NCBI GenBank assembly: GCA_965217115.1
Contig: OZ244239.1
Coordinates: 1,728,001-1,792,000 of the forward strand
Direction: 5' to 3'
DNA length: 64,000 nt
Source of the DNA: Bdellovibrionales bacterium
Lineage (GTDB): Bacteria > Bdellovibrionota > Bdellovibrionia > Bdellovibrionales > CAYMLA01
Shown: positions 23,597 through 35,173 of the stretch, piece after piece
Numbering within the stretch: position 1 is the first letter of the stretch
Layout of the letters: every line of letters starts with the position of its first letter
Program-made: the position numbers and the translations under genes
The notes under the pieces: generated by a model
What the model was told of the DNA's origin: nothing
Database searches by the model: none
What the model saw: only the letters and a program-made list of their open reading frames with translations

Positions 23597-24733
23597 TTAC
23601 CTTTTAGAGAGCAAGTGGATGTGACTTGAGCCCTCTTGTTGAATGCCTTTATTGAGTTTAATTTTCTCCCCATCTTTCTGGCCTTGGGTATAGGATTGGT
23701 TGTCAAATTGACTGGGATGGTTTGAGGTTCGATTGTGCATGCGAGGATAACGTGAGGACATGAAGTCTCTAATATTTTTTTCATCTTGTTTGATAAGGCT
23801 TTTGATTTTTGAAGAAGGGGAGTTTAAAGAGTGATCTTGAGAGGATAAGTCAGGGGCTCTGCTGAGTGTCTGCTCAAGGTTTTTTCTAAAGCCTTTAATG
23901 ACACCCATATAGTAGGATCGTCGGTTGCTGAAGTTGTCTTTGTTTTTAACCCATAACTGCGTGAGTTGTTGGTTGAGAAAGTAATAAACATATTCAGCAA
24001 TGAGAACGTTCTCCTGTCTTCCCATGAGTTCAATGGTTTTATGGATTTGATTTGTTTGCGGATCGTAAAGATCACTGAAGATGGCTTGCACGAAATAGTA
24101 TTCACTCAATAAACCGACGATTTGGCTCTGATGAAATTCGATACGTTTTTTTTTGTGATTGATAATCAAGTAAACACAATCATCGGAGGGTTCGGAATCG
24201 GAGAGTTTGTCGACGTTATATTTTAAAATAAGTTGTTGGGCTTTGGCAGCAGCACGATAGGCCTCGTGTTCATTGGTGGATTGTGCAAGAGAGAGAAGTT
24301 TTTTTATTTTTCTCAATGGAGAATTCCGATTGTCGAATTCATTCTGCCGTCTCTGCCATTGTTCTTTCCATAAAGGAATGGGTTGATCTAGATCGATGGA
24401 GGCACTGTTAAATGGAGGACAAATTCCAATGCTTTTACAAGCTTTTTGAAAAGAGGCTCTATGCCCATCGTCTGTTCGATACAGTTCACTGCAAATTTGA
24501 TGGGCCATTTCATGTTTGAAAATCTGCAGAACAACATCCCAAGGATAGTTGAGGATGAGGGTCTTTGATATTTCGATCTTTCTCTCATAGGGAGACCACC
24601 GTCCCCAGTGGCTCTTATTATCTGTGATTTCAATAACAGCAGGTCGCAGTTTGAGGCGATATTGAAAACAGATGTACTCATGTTCTCTTAACAGCTGCTG
24701 ACACCATTTTTTTATGTCCACCGTTTTCCCCAC
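23597..24733 (-). CDS. SprT-like metallopeptidase with DUF2786-like domain
   Basis: WGRW, HEMAH and H...F motifs of SprT; KIKKLLSLAQSTNEHEA..A..KAQQLI.KY of DUF2786. Confidence 0.8.
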   Translation of the reverse strand: MGKTVDIKKWCQQLLREHEYICFQYRLKLRPAVIEITDNKSHWGRWSPYERKIEISKTLILNYPWDVVLQIFKHEMAHQICSELYRTDDGHRASFQKACKSIGICPPFNSASIDLDQPIPLWKEQWQRRQNEFDNRNSPLRKIKKLLSLAQSTNEHEAYRAAAKAQQLILKYNVDKLSDSEPSDDCVYLIINHKKKRIEFHQSQIVGLLSEYYFVQAIFSDLYDPQTNQIHKTIELMGRQENVLIAEYVYYFLNQQLTQLWVKNKDNFSNRRSYYMGVIKGFRKNLEQTLSRAPDLSSQDHSLNSPSSKIKSLIKQDEKNIRDFMSSRYPRMHNRTSNHPSQFDNQSYTQGQKDGEKIKLNKGIQQEGSSHIHLLSKR

Positions 24734-24826
24734 CGCATTCTCGCCCCCAGAAAAAACATTTAACTAAACCTTATACATTTTTTTCACCTGAAAAGCTATA
24801 AAGAACAGACCCCCCCCCCACAAACA

Positions 24827-25091
24827 CCCCCTTCCCCTTCCCCTTCTCCTCTTCCTTTCCCTTTTCCTTTCCCTTTCCCTTTTCCTTCTCCTTTTCCTTT
24901 TCCTTTTCCTTTTCCTTCTCCTTCTCCTTTTCCTTTTCCTTCTCCCTTCTCCCTTCTTCTTCTCCCTTCTCCCTTCTCCCTTCTCCCTTCTTCTTCCCCT
25001 TTTTCTTCCCCTTTCCCCCTTTTTCCCCCTTTTCCCCCTTTCCTCCCTTTTTCCCCTTTCCTCCCTTTTTTCCCTTTTTTCCCTCCCTCCC
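24827..25091 (+). repeat. 265-nt pure pyrimidine low-complexity tract
   Basis: Only C and T between 24827 and 25091; the core is a TCCTTT/TCCTTC hexamer repeat. Confidence 0.9.
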
Positions 25092-25127
25092 GCCCCCCCC
25101 CGCTGTCCCCCCTCCCATTGCAGCTTT

Positions 25128-25257
25128 CAGTGAGCCGTGATTCCAAGGGGGTTGTCTCCAAGTGAGTTCGGCTTGGTGCGCTGCTCACTTCAGTGAGCGG
25201 CGCCGCCAAACGCATGTCTGAACATGGAGACAACCCCCTTGGAATCACGGCTCACTG
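25128..25257. repeat. 130-bp palindromic element with perfect 33-bp terminal inverted repeats and an internal hairpin (MITE/REP-like)
   Basis: CAGTGAGCCGTGATTCCAAGGGGGTTGTCTCCA at 25128-25160 is the exact reverse complement of 25225-25257; the inner hairpin is GCGCTGCTCACT-TC-AGTGAGCGGCGC. Confidence 0.85.
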
Positions 25258-26417: not shown

Positions 26418-27533
26418 ATGATCATTGGTGTGCCTAAAGAGATTAAAATTAGTGAGAATAGGGTTGGTTTAACTGAGGCAGGAGTGCGTCAGTTGGTGCG
26501 TGAAGGACATAGTCTTTTAGTTGAAAAAGATGCTGGTGTTGGCATTGGTTTGTCCAATAATGATTATGAGAAAATGGGTGCGCAGATTATTGATTCCAAA
26601 ATGAGCGTTTATCGCAAGGCTGAAATGATCGTAAAGGTTAAAGAACCTTTGCCTGATGAGTATGATTTGATGCAAGAAAATCAAATTTTATACACGTATC
26701 TGCATTTGGCGGCGGAGCCAAAGCTCACCAAAGTGTTGTGTGAGCGCAAAGTTAAGGCTGTGGCCTATGAAACTATTGAGGCAGCAGATGGGTCGTTGCC
26801 TTTGCTTATTCCTATGAGTGAAGTGGCAGGGCGTATGGCGACACAGATAGGAGCCTTTTATCTACAAAAAGACAAGGGTGGTAAGGGTGTATTGTTGGGC
26901 GGAGTGACAGGGGTGACTCCAGCTAAGGTGACGATCATTGGTGGCGGAGTGGTTGGCACTAATGCAGCTAAAATGGCCGTTGGATTAGGTGCTGAGGTGA
27001 CTGTTTTGGATGTGAATCACGCGAGGTTACGTTATTTGGATGATGTTTTTGGAGGAAGGCTAAGAACCCTCCATTCTAATTATACAAACATTGAAACTTC
27101 AGTGAAAAATTCTGATCTCGTTATTGGAGCTGTTCTCTTGGCAGGGTGTAAGGCTCCAGTGCTTGTGACTAAAGAGATGATTAAGCAAATGGAAAGAGGT
27201 TCCGTGGTTGTTGATGTGGCAGTGGACCAAGGTGGTTGCATAGAGACTTGTCGTCCAACAAGTCACACGGAGCCGACGTATAATATTGATGATGTGATTC
27301 ATTACTGCGTGCCTAATATGCCTGGTGTCGTGGCGAGGACGTCAACATACGCATTGACCAATTGCACATTTAGATATGCTTCAATCATTGCAGAGATGGG
27401 TTTGGAAGAGGCTCTAGCTAAGGACTCTTATTTGCTAAAGGGCTTAAATACCTACGGTGGCCATGTCACCTATGGGCCTGTCGCAAAGGCCCTGGATATG
27501 AAGTACACCCCCTATTCCTGCACTGACAGCTGA
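26418..27533 (+). CDS. ald: Alanine dehydrogenase
   Basis: [30 protein letters not shown] and HYCVPNMPG motifs. Confidence 0.97.
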
Positions 27534-27900
27534 CGACGGACTTAATAAAAGCCATTGTAGATCACTTTAAACACCTCTGGCCCTTGAGAGGTTATTCAGC
27601 CCTATCAATCTCAAACATCAAGTCTCAGCAGGTCAAAAAACCAACCCTGTTGAGTTGATAATGTATTTTTTCTAAAAAAAATATAGATTTTTTTAGGCCT
27701 GTATCTAACCTATTATATTAAGGTTTTTAGCTAAAACAGACAAATTATTAATCTATTAGAGAATAAAAGGAAGAAACACATAGACAGATTGCTGCGCCGC
27801 GTAGTACGTTGTGCCGAAACAGAGAAACAGTGCTGAGCCTTAGATTTTTTTAGATCAGCTTAAATTAAAAATGTTTCCCAAAAAATAGGAGAGTATTAGA

Positions 27901-28170
27901 ATGGAAAAAACAGTGAAAAGAACAGTGATGATGTTGGTGTTGGGTTTGAGCTTAAGCGCAAATGCGACGTATAATGGTGGTGGTATATGCTCTGGATCAG
28001 ATTGCAATCTGACTCCTACAGAGTCAGCGGTGATCATAGATGATGCCCAGAATTTTTTAAATGGCGGTGATGCTTCAGAAGTATTTGCCCTTAGTTTTGC
28101 TGGCGCTTTGCTGGAAGACACCTCTCTAACTGCTGAAGAGTATGCCCAACAAATTCTTGAAGGTGAGTAG
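27901..28170 (+). CDS. Small secreted protein, copy 1 (DUF2388-like)
   Basis: SD AGGAG; signal peptide ending ANA; CSGSDC; C-terminal DDAQNFL...EEYAQQIL resembles the DUF2388 DDA..FVA....LAQAIL pattern as I recall it. Confidence 0.8.
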   Translation: MEKTVKRTVMMLVLGLSLSANATYNGGGICSGSDCNLTPTESAVIIDDAQNFLNGGDASEVFALSFAGALLEDTSLTAEEYAQQILEGE

Positions 28171-28193
28171 TTAAGTAGGTTTTTTTTGTGACA

Positions 28194-28227
28194 GGCCTGC
28201 TCCAGAAGATTTTTTTTGGAGTGGGCC
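28194..28227 (+). terminator. Stem-loop after copy 1 (repeated at 28785-28817 and 29362-29399); leaky terminator or stability element
   Basis: GGCCTGCTCCA/TGGAGTGGGCC stem; copy 3 shows a compensatory change (GACC/GGTT); only a weak U-tract follows. Confidence 0.6.
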
Positions 28228-28486
28228 CTCGTTATTTGAGTTAATGATGTATTTTTTTCTAAGAGAAACCATCTGCTTTAAATTATATAACATACTGATT
28301 ATACTATCTTTTTTAGATAAAGCAGACAAGTTATTAATCTATAGAAGAGAGAAGGAAGAAATACATAGACAATTTGCTGCACCGCGTAGTACGTTGCGCT
28401 GAAAACAGAGAAACAGTGCTGAGCCTTAGATTTTTTCAGATCAGCTTAAATTAAAAATGTTTCCCAAAAAATAGGAGAGTATTAGA

Positions 28487-28762
28487 ATGGAAAAAACAGT
28501 GAAAAGAACAGTGATGATGCTGGTGTTGGGTTTGAGCTTAAGCGCAAATGCGACGTATACGTATAATGGTGGTGGTATATGCTCTGGATCAGATTGCAAT
28601 CTGACTCCTACAGAGTCAGCGGTGATCATAGATGATGCCCAGAATTTTTTAAATGGCGGTGATGCTTCAGAAGTATTTGCCCTTAGTTTTGCTGGCGCTT
28701 TGCTGGAAGACACTGCTCTAACTGCTGAAGAGTATGCCCAACAAATTCTTGAAGGTGAGTAG
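28487..28762 (+). CDS. Small secreted protein, copy 2 (DUF2388-like)
   Basis: As copy 1, with a TY duplication after the predicted cleavage site. Confidence 0.8.
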   Translation: MEKTVKRTVMMLVLGLSLSANATYTYNGGGICSGSDCNLTPTESAVIIDDAQNFLNGGDASEVFALSFAGALLEDTALTAEEYAQQILEGE

Positions 28763-29077
28763 TTAAGTAGTTTTTTTTGTGACAGGCCTGCTCCAGAAGA
28801 TTTTTTTGGAGTGGGCCCTCGTTATTTGAGTTAATGATGTATTTTTTTCTAAGAGAAACCATCTGCTTTAAATTATGTAACATACTGATTATACTGTCTT
28901 TTTTAGAGAGAGCAGACAAATTACTAATCTATAGAAGAGAGTAGGGGAAAATCACATAGACAATTTAACGCACTGCATGATATACTGCGCTGAAAACAGA
29001 GAAACAGTGCTGAGCCTTAGATTTTTTCAGATCAGCTTAAATTAAAAATGTTTCCTAAAAAATAGGAGAGTATTAGA

Positions 29078-29341
29078 ATGGAAAAAACAGTGAAAAGAAC
29101 AGTGATGATGTTGGTGTTGGGTTTGAGCTTAAACGCAAATGCGGAGTATGCTATGATGTGCTCTGGATCAGATTGCAATCTGACTCCTACAGAGTCAGCG
29201 GTGATCATAGGTGATGCCCAGAATTTTTTAAATGGCGGTGATGCTTCAGAAGTATTTGCCCTTAGTTTTGCTGGCGCTTTGCTGGAAGACACTGCTCTAA
29301 CTGCTGAAGAGTATGCCCAACAAATTCTTGAAGGTGAATAG
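29078..29341 (+). CDS. Small secreted protein, copy 3 (DUF2388-like)
   Basis: As copy 1, but the mature N-terminus is EYAMM instead of TYNGGGI. Confidence 0.8.
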   Translation: MEKTVKRTVMMLVLGLSLNANAEYAMMCSGSDCNLTPTESAVIIGDAQNFLNGGDASEVFALSFAGALLEDTALTAEEYAQQILEGE

Positions 29342-29442
29342 TAAGTAGATTTTTTTTGTGACAGACCTGCTCCAGAAGATTTTTTTGGAGTGGGTTCTGG
29401 TTACTTAATTAAGGTGAATAAATTTAACTTTATGAGGGAAGA

Positions 29443-31392
29443 ATGTTTTGTTTTCTGTGTGTTTTTTTATTCTCTTTTGTCTTTGGCGTTGAATTATATG
29501 GGGCTCCCCATATTGCTCCCAAGAGTATTTTGATAGAGAATAGTTCTCTTAATCAAATGGAAAAATCGAAATTGATTGAATCGATCGTCAAGAAACTTCC
29601 AGGAAATATAAAGTTAAAGGAAAACACAGAAATAAAGATAAGTTTTAAAAATCTTTCTCAGCAAGAAATACAGAAGAACTATTGCCAGCAGGAGAAGGGA
29701 GTTAAACTGGCTAGATTGGCTCTTTATGATGACAGTCATATAGTGGTGGATGAGCAGTTTATTCAAGTTATTCAAGATAAGGTGAGAGGAAATAACTTAG
29801 AGAGGAAAGGTGAATGTTTTTATAAAACAAAGTATGAGCTTTTAGTTGGAACATTATTGCATGAGATTGGACATGTTTTCGACTATAATAGTGAGTTGCC
29901 CTATTATTACGGCAGAGAAAGAGAGGATATATATCGAGAGGACATCTATGGAGATGATGATACAGGTGTGGATGATATGGAAGAGAGGGGATTCAAGCGG
30001 CATTCTGAAATCGATGAATTTAAAACGTGGGCTATTTATGGTCCCAGAAGTCTTTTCTTTGGCACCCAAAACTTAACTTTTATGAACAGCCCTAATCGTC
30101 ATGAGTTTAGTAATTCTAAGGAGCGATTTGCGATTCAATTTGAGTTTTTTTCTATAGATAAAAGCTATGCTTGTCGCAGACCTAATATGTATCGCTATTT
30201 CACTGAGGTATTAAAGTTATCCCCTCGATATCAGGTTAAGTGCCAAATAAATACAAAAATTAAGTCAACGTCATTTAGAAAAAAAATAAATTTGAGCAAT
30301 GTCTTTGATGTTCAGCTCTTTGTAAGTGTGCCCCATGAAGAGAGCACGCCTTGGGGACACTCGTCTATTAAGATTTTAAGATGTAAGAGAATCATTGAAG
30401 AAGACGAAGCCTGTCCAGAGAAGTTCGTTGAAGAGCTTTTTCTGGATTACAGTATGGATGGTGTTCAAGATATAGGTGAAGGCAATGTTATTAATGCTCT
30501 ATTAGGAAGATTCAATTTGAGTTCTAAAATAAGGGAGAAGAATGAATATATGCAGCAGTTCTTAAGTCAGGAGGGACGAGAGTTCTTTTTGTTGCCTCTA
30601 AAGCTAAACAAAGATCAGAGAGATGTGCTTGTTGATCAAATCCTAGAGAATCACTGGGGTTTGTGGTCGGCCTATGTCTTGCATGGTAACAATTGCACCC
30701 ATGTTATAGCGAATATGATTAAAATGGCTAAGCGTGATTACAATTGGGAAGTTGAAAAAGTATTAACTCCAATAAAATTGGTGACAGAAATAATTGCGAG
30801 AGGTTATGTCAACCGAGAGATTAAAGAATTTGATCTACAGCGAATAAAAGATCTGGGTCTTTACTTAAAGAGTGATGATGGGTATGTAGCTAAAGGGTGG
30901 AGGGTTTTAAAGAATTTTCTCAAGCTTCATAGTGAGATAACCTTGGAAGAATTTAAAGCAGAAAATTCATCTGCGGAAAGAATGGAAGCCTATAGTGAGG
31001 TCGCCCTTTTGAATGAGAACAAGAGAAAGTTGATATATGCATCAGCAATGGTGTTAGAGAAATATTTTCTAACATCTGCCAAAAAGAATTTTACAGGAGT
31101 CGTTGATTTAAAAATTGAGGGTTGGCAAGAGTTACTTGCAGAATATCAGAAAGCCCATATAAATCTTTTGCCTTGGAATATTGTGCGAAGAAAATCCTAT
31201 GGAATCCCTTTGATAGAAGATGTTTATCCTGAGGAGATCTTGCTTAAAAGAGTTGAACGGCTCTTAGAGTCATCTCAAAGTTTGTGGGGAGCCGTTGATG
31301 AAAAAAACAAACGTCCAGAGTTTGATGAAATTAGAGAAAACATTGAGAATCTTTCAATGAAGCTTCTTTATCAAAGAAAATTAATTAATTAG
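29443..31392 (+). CDS. Secreted protein with HEXXH metallopeptidase-like region and DUF4105 (Lnb N-terminal-like) domain
   Basis: Hydrophobic N-terminus; LLHEIGHVFD; SPNRHE...ERFA..FEFF..D.SYACRRP.MYRYF; PWGHSSI and Y.LHGNNCT, the His/Cys motifs typical of DUF4105. Confidence 0.75.
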   Translation: MFCFLCVFLFSFVFGVELYGAPHIAPKSILIENSSLNQMEKSKLIESIVKKLPGNIKLKENTEIKISFKNLSQQEIQKNYCQQEKGVKLARLALYDDSHIVVDEQFIQVIQDKVRGNNLERKGECFYKTKYELLVGTLLHEIGHVFDYNSELPYYYGREREDIYREDIYGDDDTGVDDMEERGFKRHSEIDEFKTWAIYGPRSLFFGTQNLTFMNSPNRHEFSNSKERFAIQFEFFSIDKSYACRRPNMYRYFTEVLKLSPRYQVKCQINTKIKSTSFRKKINLSNVFDVQLFVSVPHEESTPWGHSSIKILRCKRIIEEDEACPEKFVEELFLDYSMDGVQDIGEGNVINALLGRFNLSSKIREKNEYMQQFLSQEGREFFLLPLKLNKDQRDVLVDQILENHWGLWSAYVLHGNNCTHVIANMIKMAKRDYNWEVEKVLTPIKLVTEIIARGYVNREIKEFDLQRIKDLGLYLKSDDGYVAKGWRVLKNFLKLHSEITLEEFKAENSSAERMEAYSEVALLNENKRKLIYASAMVLEKYFLTSAKKNFTGVVDLKIEGWQELLAEYQKAHINLLPWNIVRRKSYGIPLIEDVYPEEILLKRVERLLESSQSLWGAVDEKNKRPEFDEIRENIENLSMKLLYQRKLIN

Positions 31393-31455: not shown

Positions 31456-32274
31456 TCAGAAAGTCAACTTGTAGTCAGTCGTAGTATTCATAATTTGCAC
31501 AGGAATGTGGAGATGACCCCAGTCTTGTGTTTTTAAGAGATTAATCGATCGGTTTTTTAAAAGTTTCGTTACTTTTTTGTGTGGATGCCTGTACTTTCGA
31601 TATCTCGAACTGGCAATGGATGTTTGCAATCGATTTAATTTTTTTAGTAGCTCAGATGAAGTGCTTGTATAGCTGCCGTGATGGCCAAGAAGCAGAAATT
31701 TTATGGATGAAGGGGATGGGATTTGATAGAGCCAGCGTCGTTCTTGCTCTTTTGGTGAATCGCCCGAAACCAGTATTTGATTTGCTATAATGAAGACATG
31801 ACTGAAAGTGTTTTGAGAAGGATCTTTTTTGTTAGTTTTAATTGAGAAATGGACTTTTTTTACGGGATGACTCTTTAATACCGAATGACATGAAGGGATT
31901 TTTTTTAGCCAGGCCTTCTTTTTGTAGGAAGCAAAACCTCTTGGTTGAGTGACAATACAGAGATGGTTGAAATTTTTCAAAGCTGTTCTTGTAAAATTAA
32001 TATGATCCCAATCCCAGTGGGTAAAATGGACAAGATTTTTCTTATTTTGGCATTCCCTCTTTACTGATGACCAGTCAAAGGAAAAGAATTCACCGCCCAT
32101 ATCAATGTGATAACAAGCATCATGAAGAGAGAGGGTTGTCCATAAGCCTTGGCCAACGTTCCATATAATAAACTGGGGAAGAGAGAGATGGGATAGATTT
32201 GATGAAAAAATGAAGATCCATAGAAATGGTAAAATAGAAGATGTAGGGTGAAGAGTAGCTACAGTTTTTTTCAT
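31456..32274 (-). CDS. ComEC/Rec2-type metallo-beta-lactamase domain protein (separate polypeptide)
   Basis: WNVGQG, THWDWDH, VSGD, GHHGS and YRHPH motifs. The likely start is ATG at 32274, overlapping the upstream TGA (ATGA). Confidence 0.85.
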   Translation of the reverse strand: MKKTVATLHPTSSILPFLWIFIFSSNLSHLSLPQFIIWNVGQGLWTTLSLHDACYHIDMGGEFFSFDWSSVKRECQNKKNLVHFTHWDWDHINFTRTALKNFNHLCIVTQPRGFASYKKKAWLKKIPSCHSVLKSHPVKKVHFSIKTNKKDPSQNTFSHVFIIANQILVSGDSPKEQERRWLYQIPSPSSIKFLLLGHHGSYTSTSSELLKKLNRLQTSIASSRYRKYRHPHKKVTKLLKNRSINLLKTQDWGHLHIPVQIMNTTTDYKLTF

Positions 32275-33149
32275 AGATACCTTCTCTTTTGTAGACAAAG
32301 TGATAAGAGATAAAGACTTAGCGGATAGATAAGAAACCAATCTGTGGGGAGTGCAACGGGAGATAAAGGGGTGGGGATGTGTCGAGAGAATTCAATGATG
32401 TGTGTTTGTGACCAATGGAATACAGGGGCAACGTAATCGGGGAGAAGAAGGTACACGAAAGATAGAGGAAAGAGGACGTGACTTAAAAGGGGAGCAATAA
32501 AACAATTAGTGAAGATGGTGAGTGGATGGGGAAGTCCTAAAGGAAGCAGAGGGAGTGTCATGGTTAAAAACATAAGACTCTGTTTCTTAAAGGAAGATAA
32601 TCGCGGTAAGTATTGACGAAAAGCCGCAAGGCTTAGAGCCGCACTCCAGCTTAGGGTTAGGGAGAGTGAAGAGAGCCACAGGGGTTGTAAAGTGAGAGCA
32701 AATAATCCAGATAAGAGAGAGAGTTTTGTTGGTGACCAGTTCATTTTGTAAAAATCATTCTGGGAGCGCAATAAAATAGCCAGCCATGAGCGAACGGCAG
32801 GTGGGTGAGCGCCCGATATTAAGACGTAAATAAGTAAAGCGCCTAGAATGAGATTGCTCTGTCTGTTTGTCTTTTTAAGCGAGGCGATGAAGCTCTCTAA
32901 AACAAGGAGATGAGCCCCAGAGATAACAACTAAGTGAATAAGCCCCGTTGATTTCAGGGCATTTTTTAGTGGAATGTCGTGCAACTTAGAACCACAAATC
33001 AAGCTCTTAGGTAGATCGGAATAGAGAGAGTTTGGAATTAAAGAGAGACAGATAGAATTAAGGAAATCTATTTGACCTGCTAATAAGTTCAGCAGAGGGC
33101 TTTGCAGGATGACGCCGATGAGGGCAGCTATAAAGACAAAAATGGCCAT
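32271..33149 (-). CDS. comEC: ComEC competence (membrane channel) domain protein
   Basis: TGLIHLVVISGAHL, PPAVRS, LSW.A motifs and multiple TM helices. The likely start is ATG at 33149; the ORF track extends it to 33293. Confidence 0.85.
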   Translation of the reverse strand: MAIFVFIAALIGVILQSPLLNLLAGQIDFLNSICLSLIPNSLYSDLPKSLICGSKLHDIPLKNALKSTGLIHLVVISGAHLLVLESFIASLKKTNRQSNLILGALLIYVLISGAHPPAVRSWLAILLRSQNDFYKMNWSPTKLSLLSGLFALTLQPLWLSSLSLTLSWSAALSLAAFRQYLPRLSSFKKQSLMFLTMTLPLLPLGLPHPLTIFTNCFIAPLLSHVLFPLSFVYLLLPDYVAPVFHWSQTHIIEFSRHIPTPLSPVALPTDWFLIYPLSLYLLSLCLQKRRYL

Positions 33150-33261
33150 GTATGTTGGTAAGCATTTTTGATACCTAGATATAGTAAAATGAAGGCAAAC
33201 AGTTTTTTTAAGTTGTGAGTCAGGGCAGTTTAAGAACTTTGTTAGAAAATAGTTAAAATCT

Positions 33262-33505
33262 TGTGAATAATCTATTTTCATAAGTAAAAACAATATCTTA
33301 CGTGAGCATAATAAACAGGCAAAGGGCTGAAAGAGGCCTCCAGAGGCGGGTCTAAGGTCTAGTTTATGGAGTAATTCACAGGCATTGTGAATAACTATCC
33401 ACGGGGTGTGAAGGAAGAAACAAGCACCGTGTCATTGTGTTATTTTGGAATTATGTCCGTATCGCGCAGTCTAAGGTCGTGAAGGGGGCGAGGTGGATAT
33501 CCACA
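33262..33505. promoter_or_regulatory. Cluster of DnaA-box-like nonamers
   Basis: TGTGAATAA at 33262 and 33386 (reverse complement TTATTCACA); near-matches TAATTCACA at 33372, CTATCCACG at 33395 and ATATCCACA at 33497. Confidence 0.5.
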
Positions 33506-33565: not shown

Positions 33566-35173
33566 GTGATGGTGAAAGTTTTAGTTTTAGGTATCGTTGT
33601 TTTTCTGCCATTTTTTTATCAGATTGACCTTTATGCACAAAATACATTTGATGGACCGGAGTTTGATTACGAAAATCAAGTTTATCATGTGTATAAAGAA
33701 TTTGGTAGTCGACTGATAGCTGATGGGGAATGGGAAGGCCTAGCCCAGGATCGGAATGTTGAAAGTTACAGTATACAAACCAATGACACTCTTTGGGGTA
33801 TTAGTAAAATTTACTTTGGCAGTGGTTATTATTGGGCTAAAATTTGGGCCTTAAATGGTGAAATTACGAATCCCCATGAAATTGTCCCCAATAAGGAACT
33901 TCGTTTCTATCCAGGGACGTTAGATCAAGAGCCTCATCTTGAATTAGCTAATAAATTAGATCAAGAGCCTCATCTTGAATTAGCTAATAAAAAAGAGAAG
34001 CTCTCTCCGAAGGAGTTGAGAGAATTAATTCCTCCACCAAAGAAAAAAATAACTCCTGTGTTACGGCTTTTACCTCCAAGTTTGCCTTCATCTTTGGTGC
34101 GCAGAAGAATTGGTCAGGCAGATGTTCAGCTATCAATTTCTTTGATAGCGACTCCTGAGAGGCCAGCATTGTCTTATCAGTTGACGGATTATATATCAGA
34201 GAGCACTCAAGGAAGTCTGGGGAAAATCATAGAAACGGAGTTAGGTGGAAAAACGGCGAGACCAGGACAGTATGTTTATATAAAAACAGAAAAAGCTCAA
34301 ATAGGTAAAGAGTATTTGGTGTTGTCTAAAGTCGCTGAACTTTCAGGTTCTAACATGATTGAAGTCCAGGGCAGGGTTCGCCTTTTAGAAGAGGCTAATA
34401 GAGAGGGCGATATTTATCGTGCTTTGGTAACCTATTCTGTGAGTCCTATTTTTGTGGGAAGCTATATAGCTGAAGGAGAAATCCAGGTTTATACGATGCA
34501 ACTTGATGGTTCATTGGTCTCTTCGTCTCAAGGAAAAATTCTCGGTGGTCGCTATGATAATAATAGAAAAATATTTGGGCGAGGTGGAATTGTTTTTATT
34601 GATTTAGGGGCTAAGAGCGGAATTGAGACGGGGACATTGTTACCTATTATTCTTAATCAGAAATCTCGCAACAGCGAGAGTCGAGTTGATCGTGTTATAA
34701 AACGCATAGGGTTATTGAAAGTTTTGAGATTAGGAGAACGTCACTCTACAGCAGTGATTCTTCAGTCGTCAGAGGATATTCGCACAGGGGATCTTGTTGG
34801 TGGGTTTGAGCAGAAGAAGAATCAAGTGGAGGGTGGAAAAACTATTAAGACTGAACAAGATGAGTTATTACTGGATAGCTTGGATGAAGTAGATAGCCAG
34901 AAAAGCGTTTCTGATCAAGAAGAACAGGACGATTTTGGCAGTGATCACATCGAAGAAAAAAAAGAAGAGGTCAAAGAAGAGATTAAAGAAGAGATTAAAG
35001 AAGAATTCAAAGAAGAGATTAAAGAAGAATTCAAAGAAGAGATTAAAGAAGAATTCAAAGAAGAGGATGAAGAAGCCACTGAGGATGATTTTGAAGATAC
35101 CAATGAAGATGATCTTGAAGATGCCAATGAAGATGATCTTGAAGATGCCAATGAAGATGATCTTTTTGAATAA
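33566..35173 (+). CDS. Secreted LysM protein (TsaP-like) with acidic repeat tail
   Basis: Signal peptide; YSIQTNDTLWGIS..Y.GSGYYWAKIW.LN..ITNPH.I LysM motif; directly upstream of dprA, a common arrangement. Confidence 0.85.
   Translation: MMVKVLVLGIVVFLPFFYQIDLYAQNTFDGPEFDYENQVYHVYKEFGSRLIADGEWEGLAQDRNVESYSIQTNDTLWGISKIYFGSGYYWAKIWALNGEITNPHEIVPNKELRFYPGTLDQEPHLELANKLDQEPHLELANKKEKLSPKELRELIPPPKKKITPVLRLLPPSLPSSLVRRRIGQADVQLSISLIATPERPALSYQLTDYISESTQGSLGKIIETELGGKTARPGQYVYIKTEKAQIGKEYLVLSKVAELSGSNMIEVQGRVRLLEEANREGDIYRALVTYSVSPIFVGSYIAEGEIQVYTMQLDGSLVSSSQGKILGGRYDNNRKIFGRGGIVFIDLGAKSGIETGTLLPIILNQKSRNSESRVDRVIKRIGLLKVLRLGERHSTAVILQSSEDIRTGDLVGGFEQKKNQVEGGKTIKTEQDELLLDSLDEVDSQKSVSDQEEQDDFGSDHIEEKKEEVKEEIKEEIKEEFKEEIKEEFKEEIKEEFKEEDEEATEDDFEDTNEDDLEDANEDDLEDANEDDLFE
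33920..33991 (+). repeat. Perfect 36-bp tandem duplication (LDQEPHLELANK x2)
   Basis: TTAGATCAAGAGCCTCATCTTGAATTAGCTAATAAA occurs twice in tandem. Confidence 0.95.
34961..35164 (+). repeat. Nine 12-bp (KEEI/KEEF) and four 24-bp (EDANEDDL-like) coding tandem repeats
   Basis: Read directly: 12-mers at 34961-35068 and 24-mers at 35069-35164. Confidence 0.92.

What the first reader, a model, noticed from the sequence alone, without database searches (positions are those of the whole stretch)
27650..31392. Array of variable-tip secreted peptides next to a dual-active-site secreted enzyme: candidate peptide processing or display system
Seen in sequence: three tandem genes encode 87-91-aa proteins. 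Each has a nearly identical signal peptide ending ANA, a short variable segment, a conserved CSGSDC and a nearly invariant acidic C-terminus. A co-oriented 649-aa secreted protein starts 101 bp after the third copy. It carries HEIGH plus a downstream E-x-F-A motif (zincin-like) and, separately, WGH...NNC. Established knowledge: GH...NC is the His/Cys signature of DUF4105, the domain found in the lipoprotein N-acyltransferase Lnb. From recall, not a search: Pseudomonas has tandem DUF2388 genes next to a DUF4105 protein with the same YACRRP..YRYF motif, function unknown. Inference: the small proteins are substrates or partners of the enzyme. The constant C-terminus could act as a recognition (follower) segment, and the variable N-terminus as a core that is cleaved or acylated after export. 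Alternatively they are inhibitors or specificity subunits of the enzyme.
Basis: partly seen in the sequence, partly recalled or inferred. Interest (0 to 1): 0.85.

Follow-up and report, generated by a model that had tools for sequence, protein, structure and literature searches.

The report
Two-headed secreted enzyme with partner proteins
Three near-identical copies of a small exported protein sit beside an exported enzyme that joins a zinc protease to a fatty-acid-transferring cysteine enzyme; this unstudied gene pair recurs across predatory bacteria and pseudomonads and may be an undescribed way of cutting and lipid-tagging envelope proteins.

Summary
A ~590-bp unit is triplicated (87-91-aa exported proteins), 101 bp before a 649-aa DUF7844 (zincin) + Lnb_N (permuted NlpC/P60) protein. 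Both catalytic sets are nearly invariant in 80 aligned family members, and both folds are supported. The small proteins fail the DUF2388 model and link to it only through an intermediate family.

The pairing is conserved. An independent locus (L251) has one 35%-identical small gene directly before a 44%-identical enzyme. 76 of 80 enzyme loci carry a DUF2388-like gene. All 16 genomes over the Pfam DUF2388 cut-off encode the enzyme (base rate 82 of 301). Some genomes scatter up to 15 small genes with variable heads.

Best reading (0.5): the small proteins are dedicated substrates, recognised by the constant three-helix domain, then cut and/or acylated. Inhibitor/immunity and accessory-subunit readings stay open; no chemistry is shown. 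The local 'variable-tip array' is weak: copies 1 and 2 differ at the tip by one slippage, and the genome has other tandem arrays. I found no paper on the pair. The scan had not noted it, only a parallel DUF3015/Lnb pairing.

The parts
27901..28170 (+). Small exported protein, copy 1 (89 aa): signal peptide 1-22, short head with a Cys pair, three-helix acidic domain; divergent DUF2388-like
28487..28762 (+). Small exported protein, copy 2 (91 aa); differs from copy 1 by a 2-residue slippage at the tip and one residue in the domain; model has helices 43-55, 62-74, 80-90
29078..29341 (+). Small exported protein, copy 3 (87 aa); distinct tip
27650..29406 (+). Three tandem units of about 590 bp (upstream region, gene, hairpin); the ~95 nt before the start codon and the coding part are much more alike than the far-upstream DNA
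28194..28227 (+). Hairpin after copy 1 (terminator- or stabiliser-like; inferred)
   Evidence: z -4.5 and -5.1
28785..28817 (+). Hairpin after copy 2
   Evidence: z -5.0
29364..29396 (+). Hairpin between copy 3 and the enzyme gene; pairing kept despite base changes on both arms
   Evidence: z -3.2 and -5.3
29443..31392 (+). 649-aa DUF7844-Lnb_N protein with an N-terminal hydrophobic export signal and no further membrane helix in a hydropathy scan
29524..30234 (+). Zincin-like domain (residues ~28-264); HExxH at 29860-29874, distal Glu227 at 30121-30123
   Evidence: Pfam DUF7844; Z 10.2 to the lethal-factor catalytic fold, 9.0 and 8.9 to PPEP-2/-3; conservation
30274..30789 (+). Permuted NlpC/P60 (Lnb_N) domain; His306 at 30358-30360, Cys418 at 30694-30696
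   Evidence: Pfam Lnb_N; Z 10.2 to TseH, 8.4 and 8.3 to YiiX-type enzymes; 80 of 80 conserved
30880..31389 (+). C-terminal all-helical region, no family assigned
26418..27533 (+). Flank: alanine dehydrogenase (not part of the system; synteny marker)
31456..33293 (-). Flank: ComEC membrane part (32271-33293) and the gene after it (31456-32340; no Pfam hit, ComEC hydrolase-like by recalled motif); synteny markers

Best explanation
A two-gene periplasmic maturation module. Shown: both products carry export signals; the large protein joins a zincin domain and a permuted NlpC/P60 His/Cys domain, both conserved; the small family has a variable, Ser/Thr/Ala/Gly-rich head and a constant three-helix C-terminal domain; the two genes travel together. 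Inferred: after Sec export and signal removal, the constant domain docks on the enzyme as a recognition tag. The zincin cuts in or next to the head, and/or the Lnb_N domain moves a fatty acyl chain from phospholipid through Cys418 onto the head (free N-terminal amine or a hydroxyl). The product would be a lipid-anchored or released envelope peptide made without a lipobox cysteine. The three copies here are a recent tandem amplification of a one-copy module, mainly raising dosage, with one diverged tip.
For: (1) Catalytic conservation in alignment A7 (80 rows): HExxH 79 of 80 at each of three positions, Glu227 79 of 80, His306 80 of 80, Cys418 80 of 80 (52 rows came from a scan whose pattern included the Glu). 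(2) Folds. (3) Independent locus L251: one small gene (P0010, 35% identical) 41 bp before a 636-aa DUF7844-Lnb_N protein 44% identical to the window enzyme, among different neighbours. Sources label P0010 Bacteriovoracaceae/Halobacteriovoraceae. The other close pair, P0005 and P0006, share the same longest-contig length (adjacency not seen). (4) Non-circular linkage with the Pfam DUF2388 model: 21 of 22 genomes with a match, and 16 of 16 over the cut-off, encode DUF7844, against 82 of 301 overall; 23 of 33 matches lie next to it (hand count). (5) 76 of 80 enzyme loci hold a small-family gene; 3 of the 4 misses are cut by contig ends. (6) Linkage survives all four gene arrangements (21 upstream, 21 downstream, 11 divergent, 5 convergent), so it is more than inherited gene order. 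(7) One enzyme, many small genes: 1 enzyme with 5, 2, 2, 5 and 1 DUF2388 matches in five Pseudomonadaceae genomes; 13 and 15 small genes in two Bdellovibrionota genomes, mostly far from an enzyme, with unrelated heads. Heads are 23-75 residues, about 50% Ser/Thr/Ala/Gly, 14% mean identity against 25% for the domain. (8) The genome has two lnt genes and one Lnb_N, so general lipoprotein N-acylation is already covered. (9) Lnb and LnsA are N-acyltransferases of this fold, and LnsA works without a membrane anchor (10.1101/2024.05.31.596883; PMC13559823).
Against: No activity, product mass or phenotype was tested. The family has no invariant acceptor residue or cleavage motif (best upstream offsets about 50% Ser/Thr; first mature residue varies). 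The window's heads are very short and lack the hydrophobic helix of many relatives. The link to DUF2388 is only transitive (direct hhalign 1% and 13%, HMM 1-2 bits). The window clade departs from the family at several otherwise near-invariant enzyme positions, including one beside the zinc site, so its chemistry may differ. 60 of 113 Bdellovibrionota enzyme loci had no detected small gene within 3 kb; some of these have longer Ser/Thr/Ala-rich exported neighbours whose tails do not match the domain. Scattered paralogs and arrays are also typical of orphan immunity genes (recalled). Genomes are kin, not independent samples.
Confidence: 0.5

Rival explanations
1. The enzyme is an exported lytic or remodelling enzyme (lipid or protein targets, in prey or competitors) and the small proteins are its periplasmic inhibitors or immunity proteins; extra copies widen protection.
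For: DUF4105 is the sister clade of the phospholipid-attacking T6SS toxin Tox-Act1, and TseH is the best fold match (PMC12994826, section 11). Every genome with the small family has the enzyme (46 of 46; partly circular). Orphan arrays exist. Self-protection proteins for exported predatory enzymes are known in Bdellovibrio (recalled).
Against: No secretion-system, Rhs or PAAR family among 60 proteins scanned from 14 loci; no PADLOC hit (0 of 5). The enzyme is a single, conserved gene in non-predatory Pseudomonadaceae. The small gene often lies upstream or on the other strand (37 of 58). The paper places DUF4105 in lipid-metabolism, not conflict, contexts. Variable heads on a constant domain are not needed to block a conserved enzyme.
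Confidence: 0.2
2. The small proteins are non-catalytic subunits or specificity adaptors that hold the enzyme at the membrane or present another substrate, as LnsB does for LnsA; they are not modified themselves.
For: The enzyme has no membrane helix beyond its signal. LnsA needs a non-catalytic partner (PMC13559823, passages). Some heads contain a hydrophobic helix (9 of 68 with a 17-residue mean hydropathy of 1.59 or more). Enzyme and small protein have diverged together in the window clade.
Against: The window's heads are short and polar (0.44), so they cannot be anchors. A hairpin between small gene and enzyme and up to 15 copies per genome suggest excess over enzyme, which fits substrates better.
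Confidence: 0.18
3. The two families act in the same envelope process and are co-regulated but never touch; the triplication is a neutral by-product of a duplication-prone genome.
For: Other recent tandem arrays of secreted genes in this genome. L251 has one copy. Copies 1 and 2 are nearly identical. This explains the copy number well.
Against: Adjacency in four arrangements, in two phyla, among changing neighbours, and joint divergence of both partners are hard to get without a direct link.
Confidence: 0.08

Closest known systems
Lnb, lipoprotein N-acyltransferase of Bacteroides (Pfam Lnb_N, ex-DUF4105; 10.1101/2024.05.31.596883)
   Same: Lnb_N domain above cut-off; His then Cys in permuted order; exported catalytic domain
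   Different: No five-helix membrane domain; extra zincin and helical domains; no match to the NCBIfam Lnb model; host has two lnt genes; partner proteins have no lipobox
LnsA/LnsB of Staphylococcus (PMC13559823)
   Same: Permuted NlpC/P60 acyltransferase with a cleaved signal peptide and a dedicated partner gene product
   Different: LnsB is a polytopic membrane protein and the substrates are lipoproteins; here the partner is a small exported three-helix protein and the enzyme is fused to a zinc peptidase
Tox-Act1 / TseH T6SS effectors with immunity proteins (PMC12994826)
   Same: Same fold (TseH Z 10.2); adjacent small gene
   Different: Own export signal; no T6SS context; conserved single-copy gene; partner is not a two-helix membrane protein like Imm-Act1
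Zincins of the lethal-factor/PPEP/MtfA fold
   Same: HExxH plus distal Glu; Z 10.2, 9.0, 8.9, 7.9; weak Peptidase_M90 hits in relatives
   Different: 13-16% identity, fold-level only; fused to an NlpC/P60 domain; none of the toxin's delivery domains; substrate unknown
DUF2388 / TIGR02448 with DUF7844-Lnb_N in Pseudomonadaceae and Bdellovibrio (function undescribed)
   Same: Same gene pair, same enzyme architecture, tandem copies, and in three Bdellovibrio genomes the same comEC (one also ald) neighbourhood
   Different: Window enzyme only 17-22% identical on a long branch; small protein below detection by the Pfam model; cassette inverted relative to its flanks
Follower-guided RiPP maturation and C-terminal sorting-signal systems (cyanobactin PatG, one-enzyme/many-precursor ProcM, exosortase, T9SS PorU; all recalled, not tested by a call)
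   Same: Variable cargo plus constant recognition part; one enzyme, many scattered substrate genes
   Different: Different enzyme families; periplasmic after Sec export; no transporter or further tailoring genes seen; modification not shown

Membership tests
Pfam Lnb_N (PF13387) | Score above the gathering cut-off | tested here: met
   35.1 bits against 22.2; 38.5 bits
Permuted NlpC/P60 | His before Cys, papain-like permuted fold | tested here: met
   His306 and Cys418 in 80 of 80; residues 285-481 align to TseH, Z 10.2, rmsd 3.9, 150 aligned
Lnb (equivalog) | Five C-terminal membrane helices; NCBIfam Lnb model | tested here: not met
   Hydropathy scan finds only the N-terminal segment; no Lnb model hit at E up to 1
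Lnb (equivalog) | N-acylates diacylated lipoproteins | not testable with these tools
   Needs an assay; two lnt genes in the genome make it unnecessary
Pfam DUF7844 (PF25226) | Score above the gathering cut-off | tested here: met
   59.4 bits against 27
Zincin metallopeptidase | HExxH with a distal third ligand in a zincin fold | tested here: met
   79 of 80 at each position; Z 10.2, rmsd 4.3, 161 aligned; ligand geometry not inspected
Zincin metallopeptidase | Zinc-dependent proteolysis | not testable with these tools
   No assay; one near-invariant position by the site is replaced in the window clade
DUF2388 / TIGR02448 | Score above the model cut-off | tested here: not met
   No hit; own DUF2388 HMM gives 1-2 bits
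DUF2388-like superfamily | Remote homology of the C-terminal domain | tested here: inconclusive
   hhalign on domains only: window clade to bridge family 91%, bridge to DUF2388 93%, direct 1%, reversed controls under 1%; 58% to the pooled profile; the bridge family was first found with the window profile, so part of this is selection
DUF2388-like superfamily | Signal peptide, ~100 aa, next to DUF7844-Lnb_N | tested here: met
T6SS effector-immunity pair | Secretion-system genes or fusions nearby; effector without its own export signal | tested here: not met
Bacterial lipoprotein (small proteins) | Lipobox with Cys at +1 | tested here: not met
   Signal ends in an Ala-X-Ala site, first Cys 6-10 residues later; no Cys as first mature residue in 68 aligned rows
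RiPP with follower peptide | Enzyme-dependent modification and release of a core | not testable with these tools
   Only the architecture fits

The most novel reading that the evidence does not exclude
An Lgt-independent, follower-guided maturation pathway in the periplasm. One bifunctional enzyme recognises the three-helix DUF2388-like tag, cuts it off with the zincin, and through its Cys acyl-enzyme either lipidates or ligates (for example cyclises) the freed head. Predators and pseudomonads would so make libraries of lipopeptides or surface peptides, up to 15 or more per genome, from scattered genes.
Probability: 0.3. Interest if true: 0.9.

Novelty: new variant of a known kind. Interest (0 to 1): 0.68.

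Why it matters
It ties three domains of unknown function (DUF2388, DUF7844, the non-Bacteroides branch of DUF4105) into one testable module that is conserved in Pseudomonadaceae and Bdellovibrionota. Fusing a zinc peptidase to an Lnb-type acyltransferase mirrors the cut-then-acylate order of lipoprotein maturation (Lsp then Lnt) in one chain, but the partners have no lipobox. If the partners are substrates, this is a new route to lipid-tagged or processed envelope peptides, testable by one mass-spectrometry experiment in a laboratory Pseudomonas putida strain. It would also correct a common automatic name for DUF2388 clusters ('Holliday junction resolvasome helicase subunit'). The triplication in this window is the least important part.

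Tried and rejected
Complex prediction of the mature enzyme with mature copy 2 and zinc: no verdict (scores 0.18 and 0.11, mark 0.32, controls not run); not evidence either way.

No RNA holder listed for the stretch; no evidence on expression.

Small-protein model: no fold match above Z 3.5. ESM Atlas gave no usable hit for it. No solved-structure relative by sequence for either family. Foldseek gave nothing at E up to 0.001.

Word-based homolog searches found only the three copies and one enzyme relative. A search for long proteins carrying the small domain found none among 7999 scored candidates, weak evidence. A metagenome scan with P0005 found nothing, so P0005/P0006 adjacency is unverified.

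Homology of DUF3015 to DUF2388: rejected, hhalign 3% or less. Tails of further enzyme neighbours, 9 sets tested: L008 82%, L246 63%, L003 47%; six sets at about 1% or less, including the 300-370-aa proteins. So 'long cargo with the same tag' is not supported.

Mirror-tree correlation (rho 0.80 over 62 pairs) is set aside because shared ancestry explains it. A donor for the tip of copy 3 elsewhere in the genome: none. Upstream regions do not fold better than shuffles; sigma-70 matches are uninformative.

Assembly artefact: disfavoured. General lipoprotein N-acyltransferase: disfavoured.

Literature: one search was swamped by an unrelated term. Searches used recalled locus tags that I could not verify; the PP0153 row in PMC6296734 is not used as evidence. 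My notebook figure of 24 of 33 was recounted as 23 of 33.
Full report
Observation. The three small ORFs, the 101-bp gap and the motifs in the 649-aa protein are as described. The repeats are whole units of about 590 bp. Between copies, the signal has 1-2 substitutions in 66 nt, the constant part 2-4 in 180 nt, the 95 nt before the start 3-7, and the far-upstream DNA 17-56 in about 160 nt. Copies 1 and 2 differ at the tip only by a 6-nt slippage; copy 3 has a different tip. The near-identity of the coding parts against the far-upstream DNA suggests recent duplication with homogenisation (inference). A strong hairpin follows each small gene and occurs nowhere else in the genome. Contigs from one sample support real multi-copy DNA. 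The genome (2.17 Mb, 39.6% G+C) has no other paralog of either gene. Its relatives fall among Bdellovibrionota by shared loci and tree labels.

The enzyme. Pfam assigns DUF7844 and Lnb_N. The model (mean pLDDT 81) has three parts. Residues 28-259 align with zincins of the lethal-factor/PPEP fold (Z 10.2, 9.0, 8.9; 13-16% identity). Residues 285-481 align with the permuted NlpC/P60 enzymes TseH and YiiX (Z 10.2, 8.4, 8.3). The rest is helical. In 80 aligned rows, HExxH and Glu227 are kept in 79 and His306 and Cys418 in 80, so both sites are under selection. There is no membrane helix after the N-terminal segment, no match to the Lnb equivalog, and the genome has two lnt genes. The window enzyme is 17-22% identical to most of the family and sits with P0005 on a long branch of unsure position (quick tree of 52 rows). 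That clade replaces several otherwise near-invariant residues.

The small proteins. They do not match DUF2388. A search of 1.84 billion representatives gave 7 hits: the protein itself, two true relatives (P0006, P0010) and four unrelated long proteins. Their profile found a family of small exported proteins in one other genus. On C-terminal domains alone, hhalign links the window clade to this family (91%) and the family to DUF2388 (93%); the direct link is 1% and reversed controls are under 1%. A model built from the bridge family alone ranks the three window proteins first to third of 6754 genome ORFs in its first three rounds, at weak E-values of 0.07-0.24; in the fourth round other ORFs intermix. 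The bridge was found with the window profile, so I call the proteins DUF2388-like, not members. The model shows three helices at 43-90 and a flexible head. Across 68 rows the heads run 23-75 residues, are about half Ser/Thr/Ala/Gly, and 19 carry two or more Cys; none starts with Cys.

Linkage. The cleanest test is L251: a single small gene of the window's clade lies 41 bp before a DUF7844-Lnb_N gene 44% identical to the window's, between miaB-like and CPBP genes instead of ald and comEC. With the Pfam DUF2388 model on 301 genomes of the phylum, 21 of 22 genomes with a match and 16 of 16 over the cut-off encode DUF7844, against 82 of 301 overall; 23 of 33 matches are adjacent (hand count). Of the best 80 of 344 enzyme loci in GTDB (Bdellovibrio and Pseudomonadaceae), 72 carry a small gene by a DUF2388-type model, 48 of them two or three copies, and 76 by the wider model. 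With the wider model, after dropping 18 rows weaker than 1e-5 and the window's own, 46 of 46 genomes have the enzyme, 53 of 113 enzyme loci have a small gene within 3 kb, and 58 of 117 small genes are near an enzyme, in all four arrangements. This model was built partly from such neighbours, so it is partly circular, and kin are not independent. In three Bdellovibrio genomes the pair lies beside comEC genes, in one also beside ald, as here but inverted. No other gene family recurs across the distant loci in a scan of 60 proteins from 14 loci; shared neighbours reflect local synteny only.

Mechanism. One conserved enzyme with 1-5 small genes in Pseudomonadaceae and up to 15 in some Bdellovibrionota, mostly scattered and with unrelated heads, is the pattern of a processing enzyme with many tagged substrates. 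Lnb and LnsA, the characterised relatives, transfer an acyl chain to an N-terminal amine through the Cys (10.1101/2024.05.31.596883; PMC13559823). A fused peptidase suggests cut-then-acylate. I put this at 0.5. An immunity or inhibitor role (0.2) draws on the kinship with Tox-Act1 and TseH (PMC12994826) but lacks conflict context. An accessory-subunit role (0.18) draws on LnsB. No step of the chemistry is shown, and no conserved acceptor residue was found.

The array itself. L251 has one copy, two of three tips are nearly identical, and the genome has other recent arrays of secreted genes. I read the triplication as dosage amplification with one diverged copy, not a dedicated display device.

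Literature. DUF2388: 3 papers, each only a table row (passages seen). DUF4105: 7 records, 4 listed, three read as passages, plus section 11 of PMC12994826 and a search of its 9 text supplements with no DUF2388, DUF3015 or DUF7844. TIGR02448, PF09498, DUF7844, PF13387, PF25226: 0 papers. PMC13559823 seen as passages; PMC6296734 as one passage; as a listing only. Subscription journals and bioRxiv supplements were not searched. Statements on ProcM, PatG, PorU, exosortase and Bdellovibrio self-protection are recalled. Earlier scan notes had no entry with DUF2388 or DUF7844 and none by sequence; one describes a parallel DUF3015/Lnb-barrel pairing, which I also saw.

Verdict. A real, conserved, undescribed two-gene module; the window holds a divergent, recently triplicated member. 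New variant of a known kind, with about a 0.3 chance of being a new maturation pathway. Interest 0.68.

Noticed in passing
L012:514-2800; L197-L226: A second Lnb_N clade (DUF7843-Lnb_N-DUF7840) sits beside small exported DUF3015 proteins; 26 of 30 DUF3015 loci have a long neighbour with His or Cys motifs by a crude pattern. Same logic, no detectable homology to DUF2388.
   Followed up: partly
G000:C1:1815405-1821356 (outside the window): Another recent tandem array of secreted-protein genes that share one signal peptide.
   Followed up: no
L227-L234 (G314); L155, L186, L192 (G084): 13-15 stand-alone DUF2388-like genes per genome; many heads are Gly/Ala/Thr-rich hydrophobic helices, some with Cys pairs, reminiscent of bacteriocin-like peptides (resemblance recalled).
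   Followed up: partly
L239, L242, L243, L248, L249: At some enzyme loci the neighbour is a 300-420-aa exported Ser/Thr/Ala-rich helical-repeat protein in place of a small gene; tails do not match the DUF2388-like domain.
   Followed up: partly
tree: Pseudomonadaceae enzymes form one branch inside Bdellovibrionota sequences in a quick, midpoint-rooted tree; a transfer is possible but no clade test was run.
   Followed up: no
ESM Atlas clusters: DUF2388 clusters carry the automatic name 'Holliday junction resolvasome, helicase subunit', which does not fit small proteins with signal peptides.
   Followed up: no
L251:7222-7860: A CPBP/Rce1-like membrane protein gene converges on the enzyme gene; LnsB belongs to this family, but the neighbour was seen at this one locus only.
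   Followed up: no
window 24771-25250: Low-complexity, strand-biased repeat stretch between the SprT-like gene and lpxC.
   Followed up: no
window 23597-24733 (-): SprT-like + DUF2786 + DUF7168 protein after ruvCAB.
   Followed up: no
window 33566-35173 (+): LysM protein with a long acidic repeat tail, before dprA.
   Followed up: no
G000:C1:874720-875946 and 2109407-2110663: Two lnt genes over the TIGR00546 cut-off in a 2.17-Mb genome.
   Followed up: no
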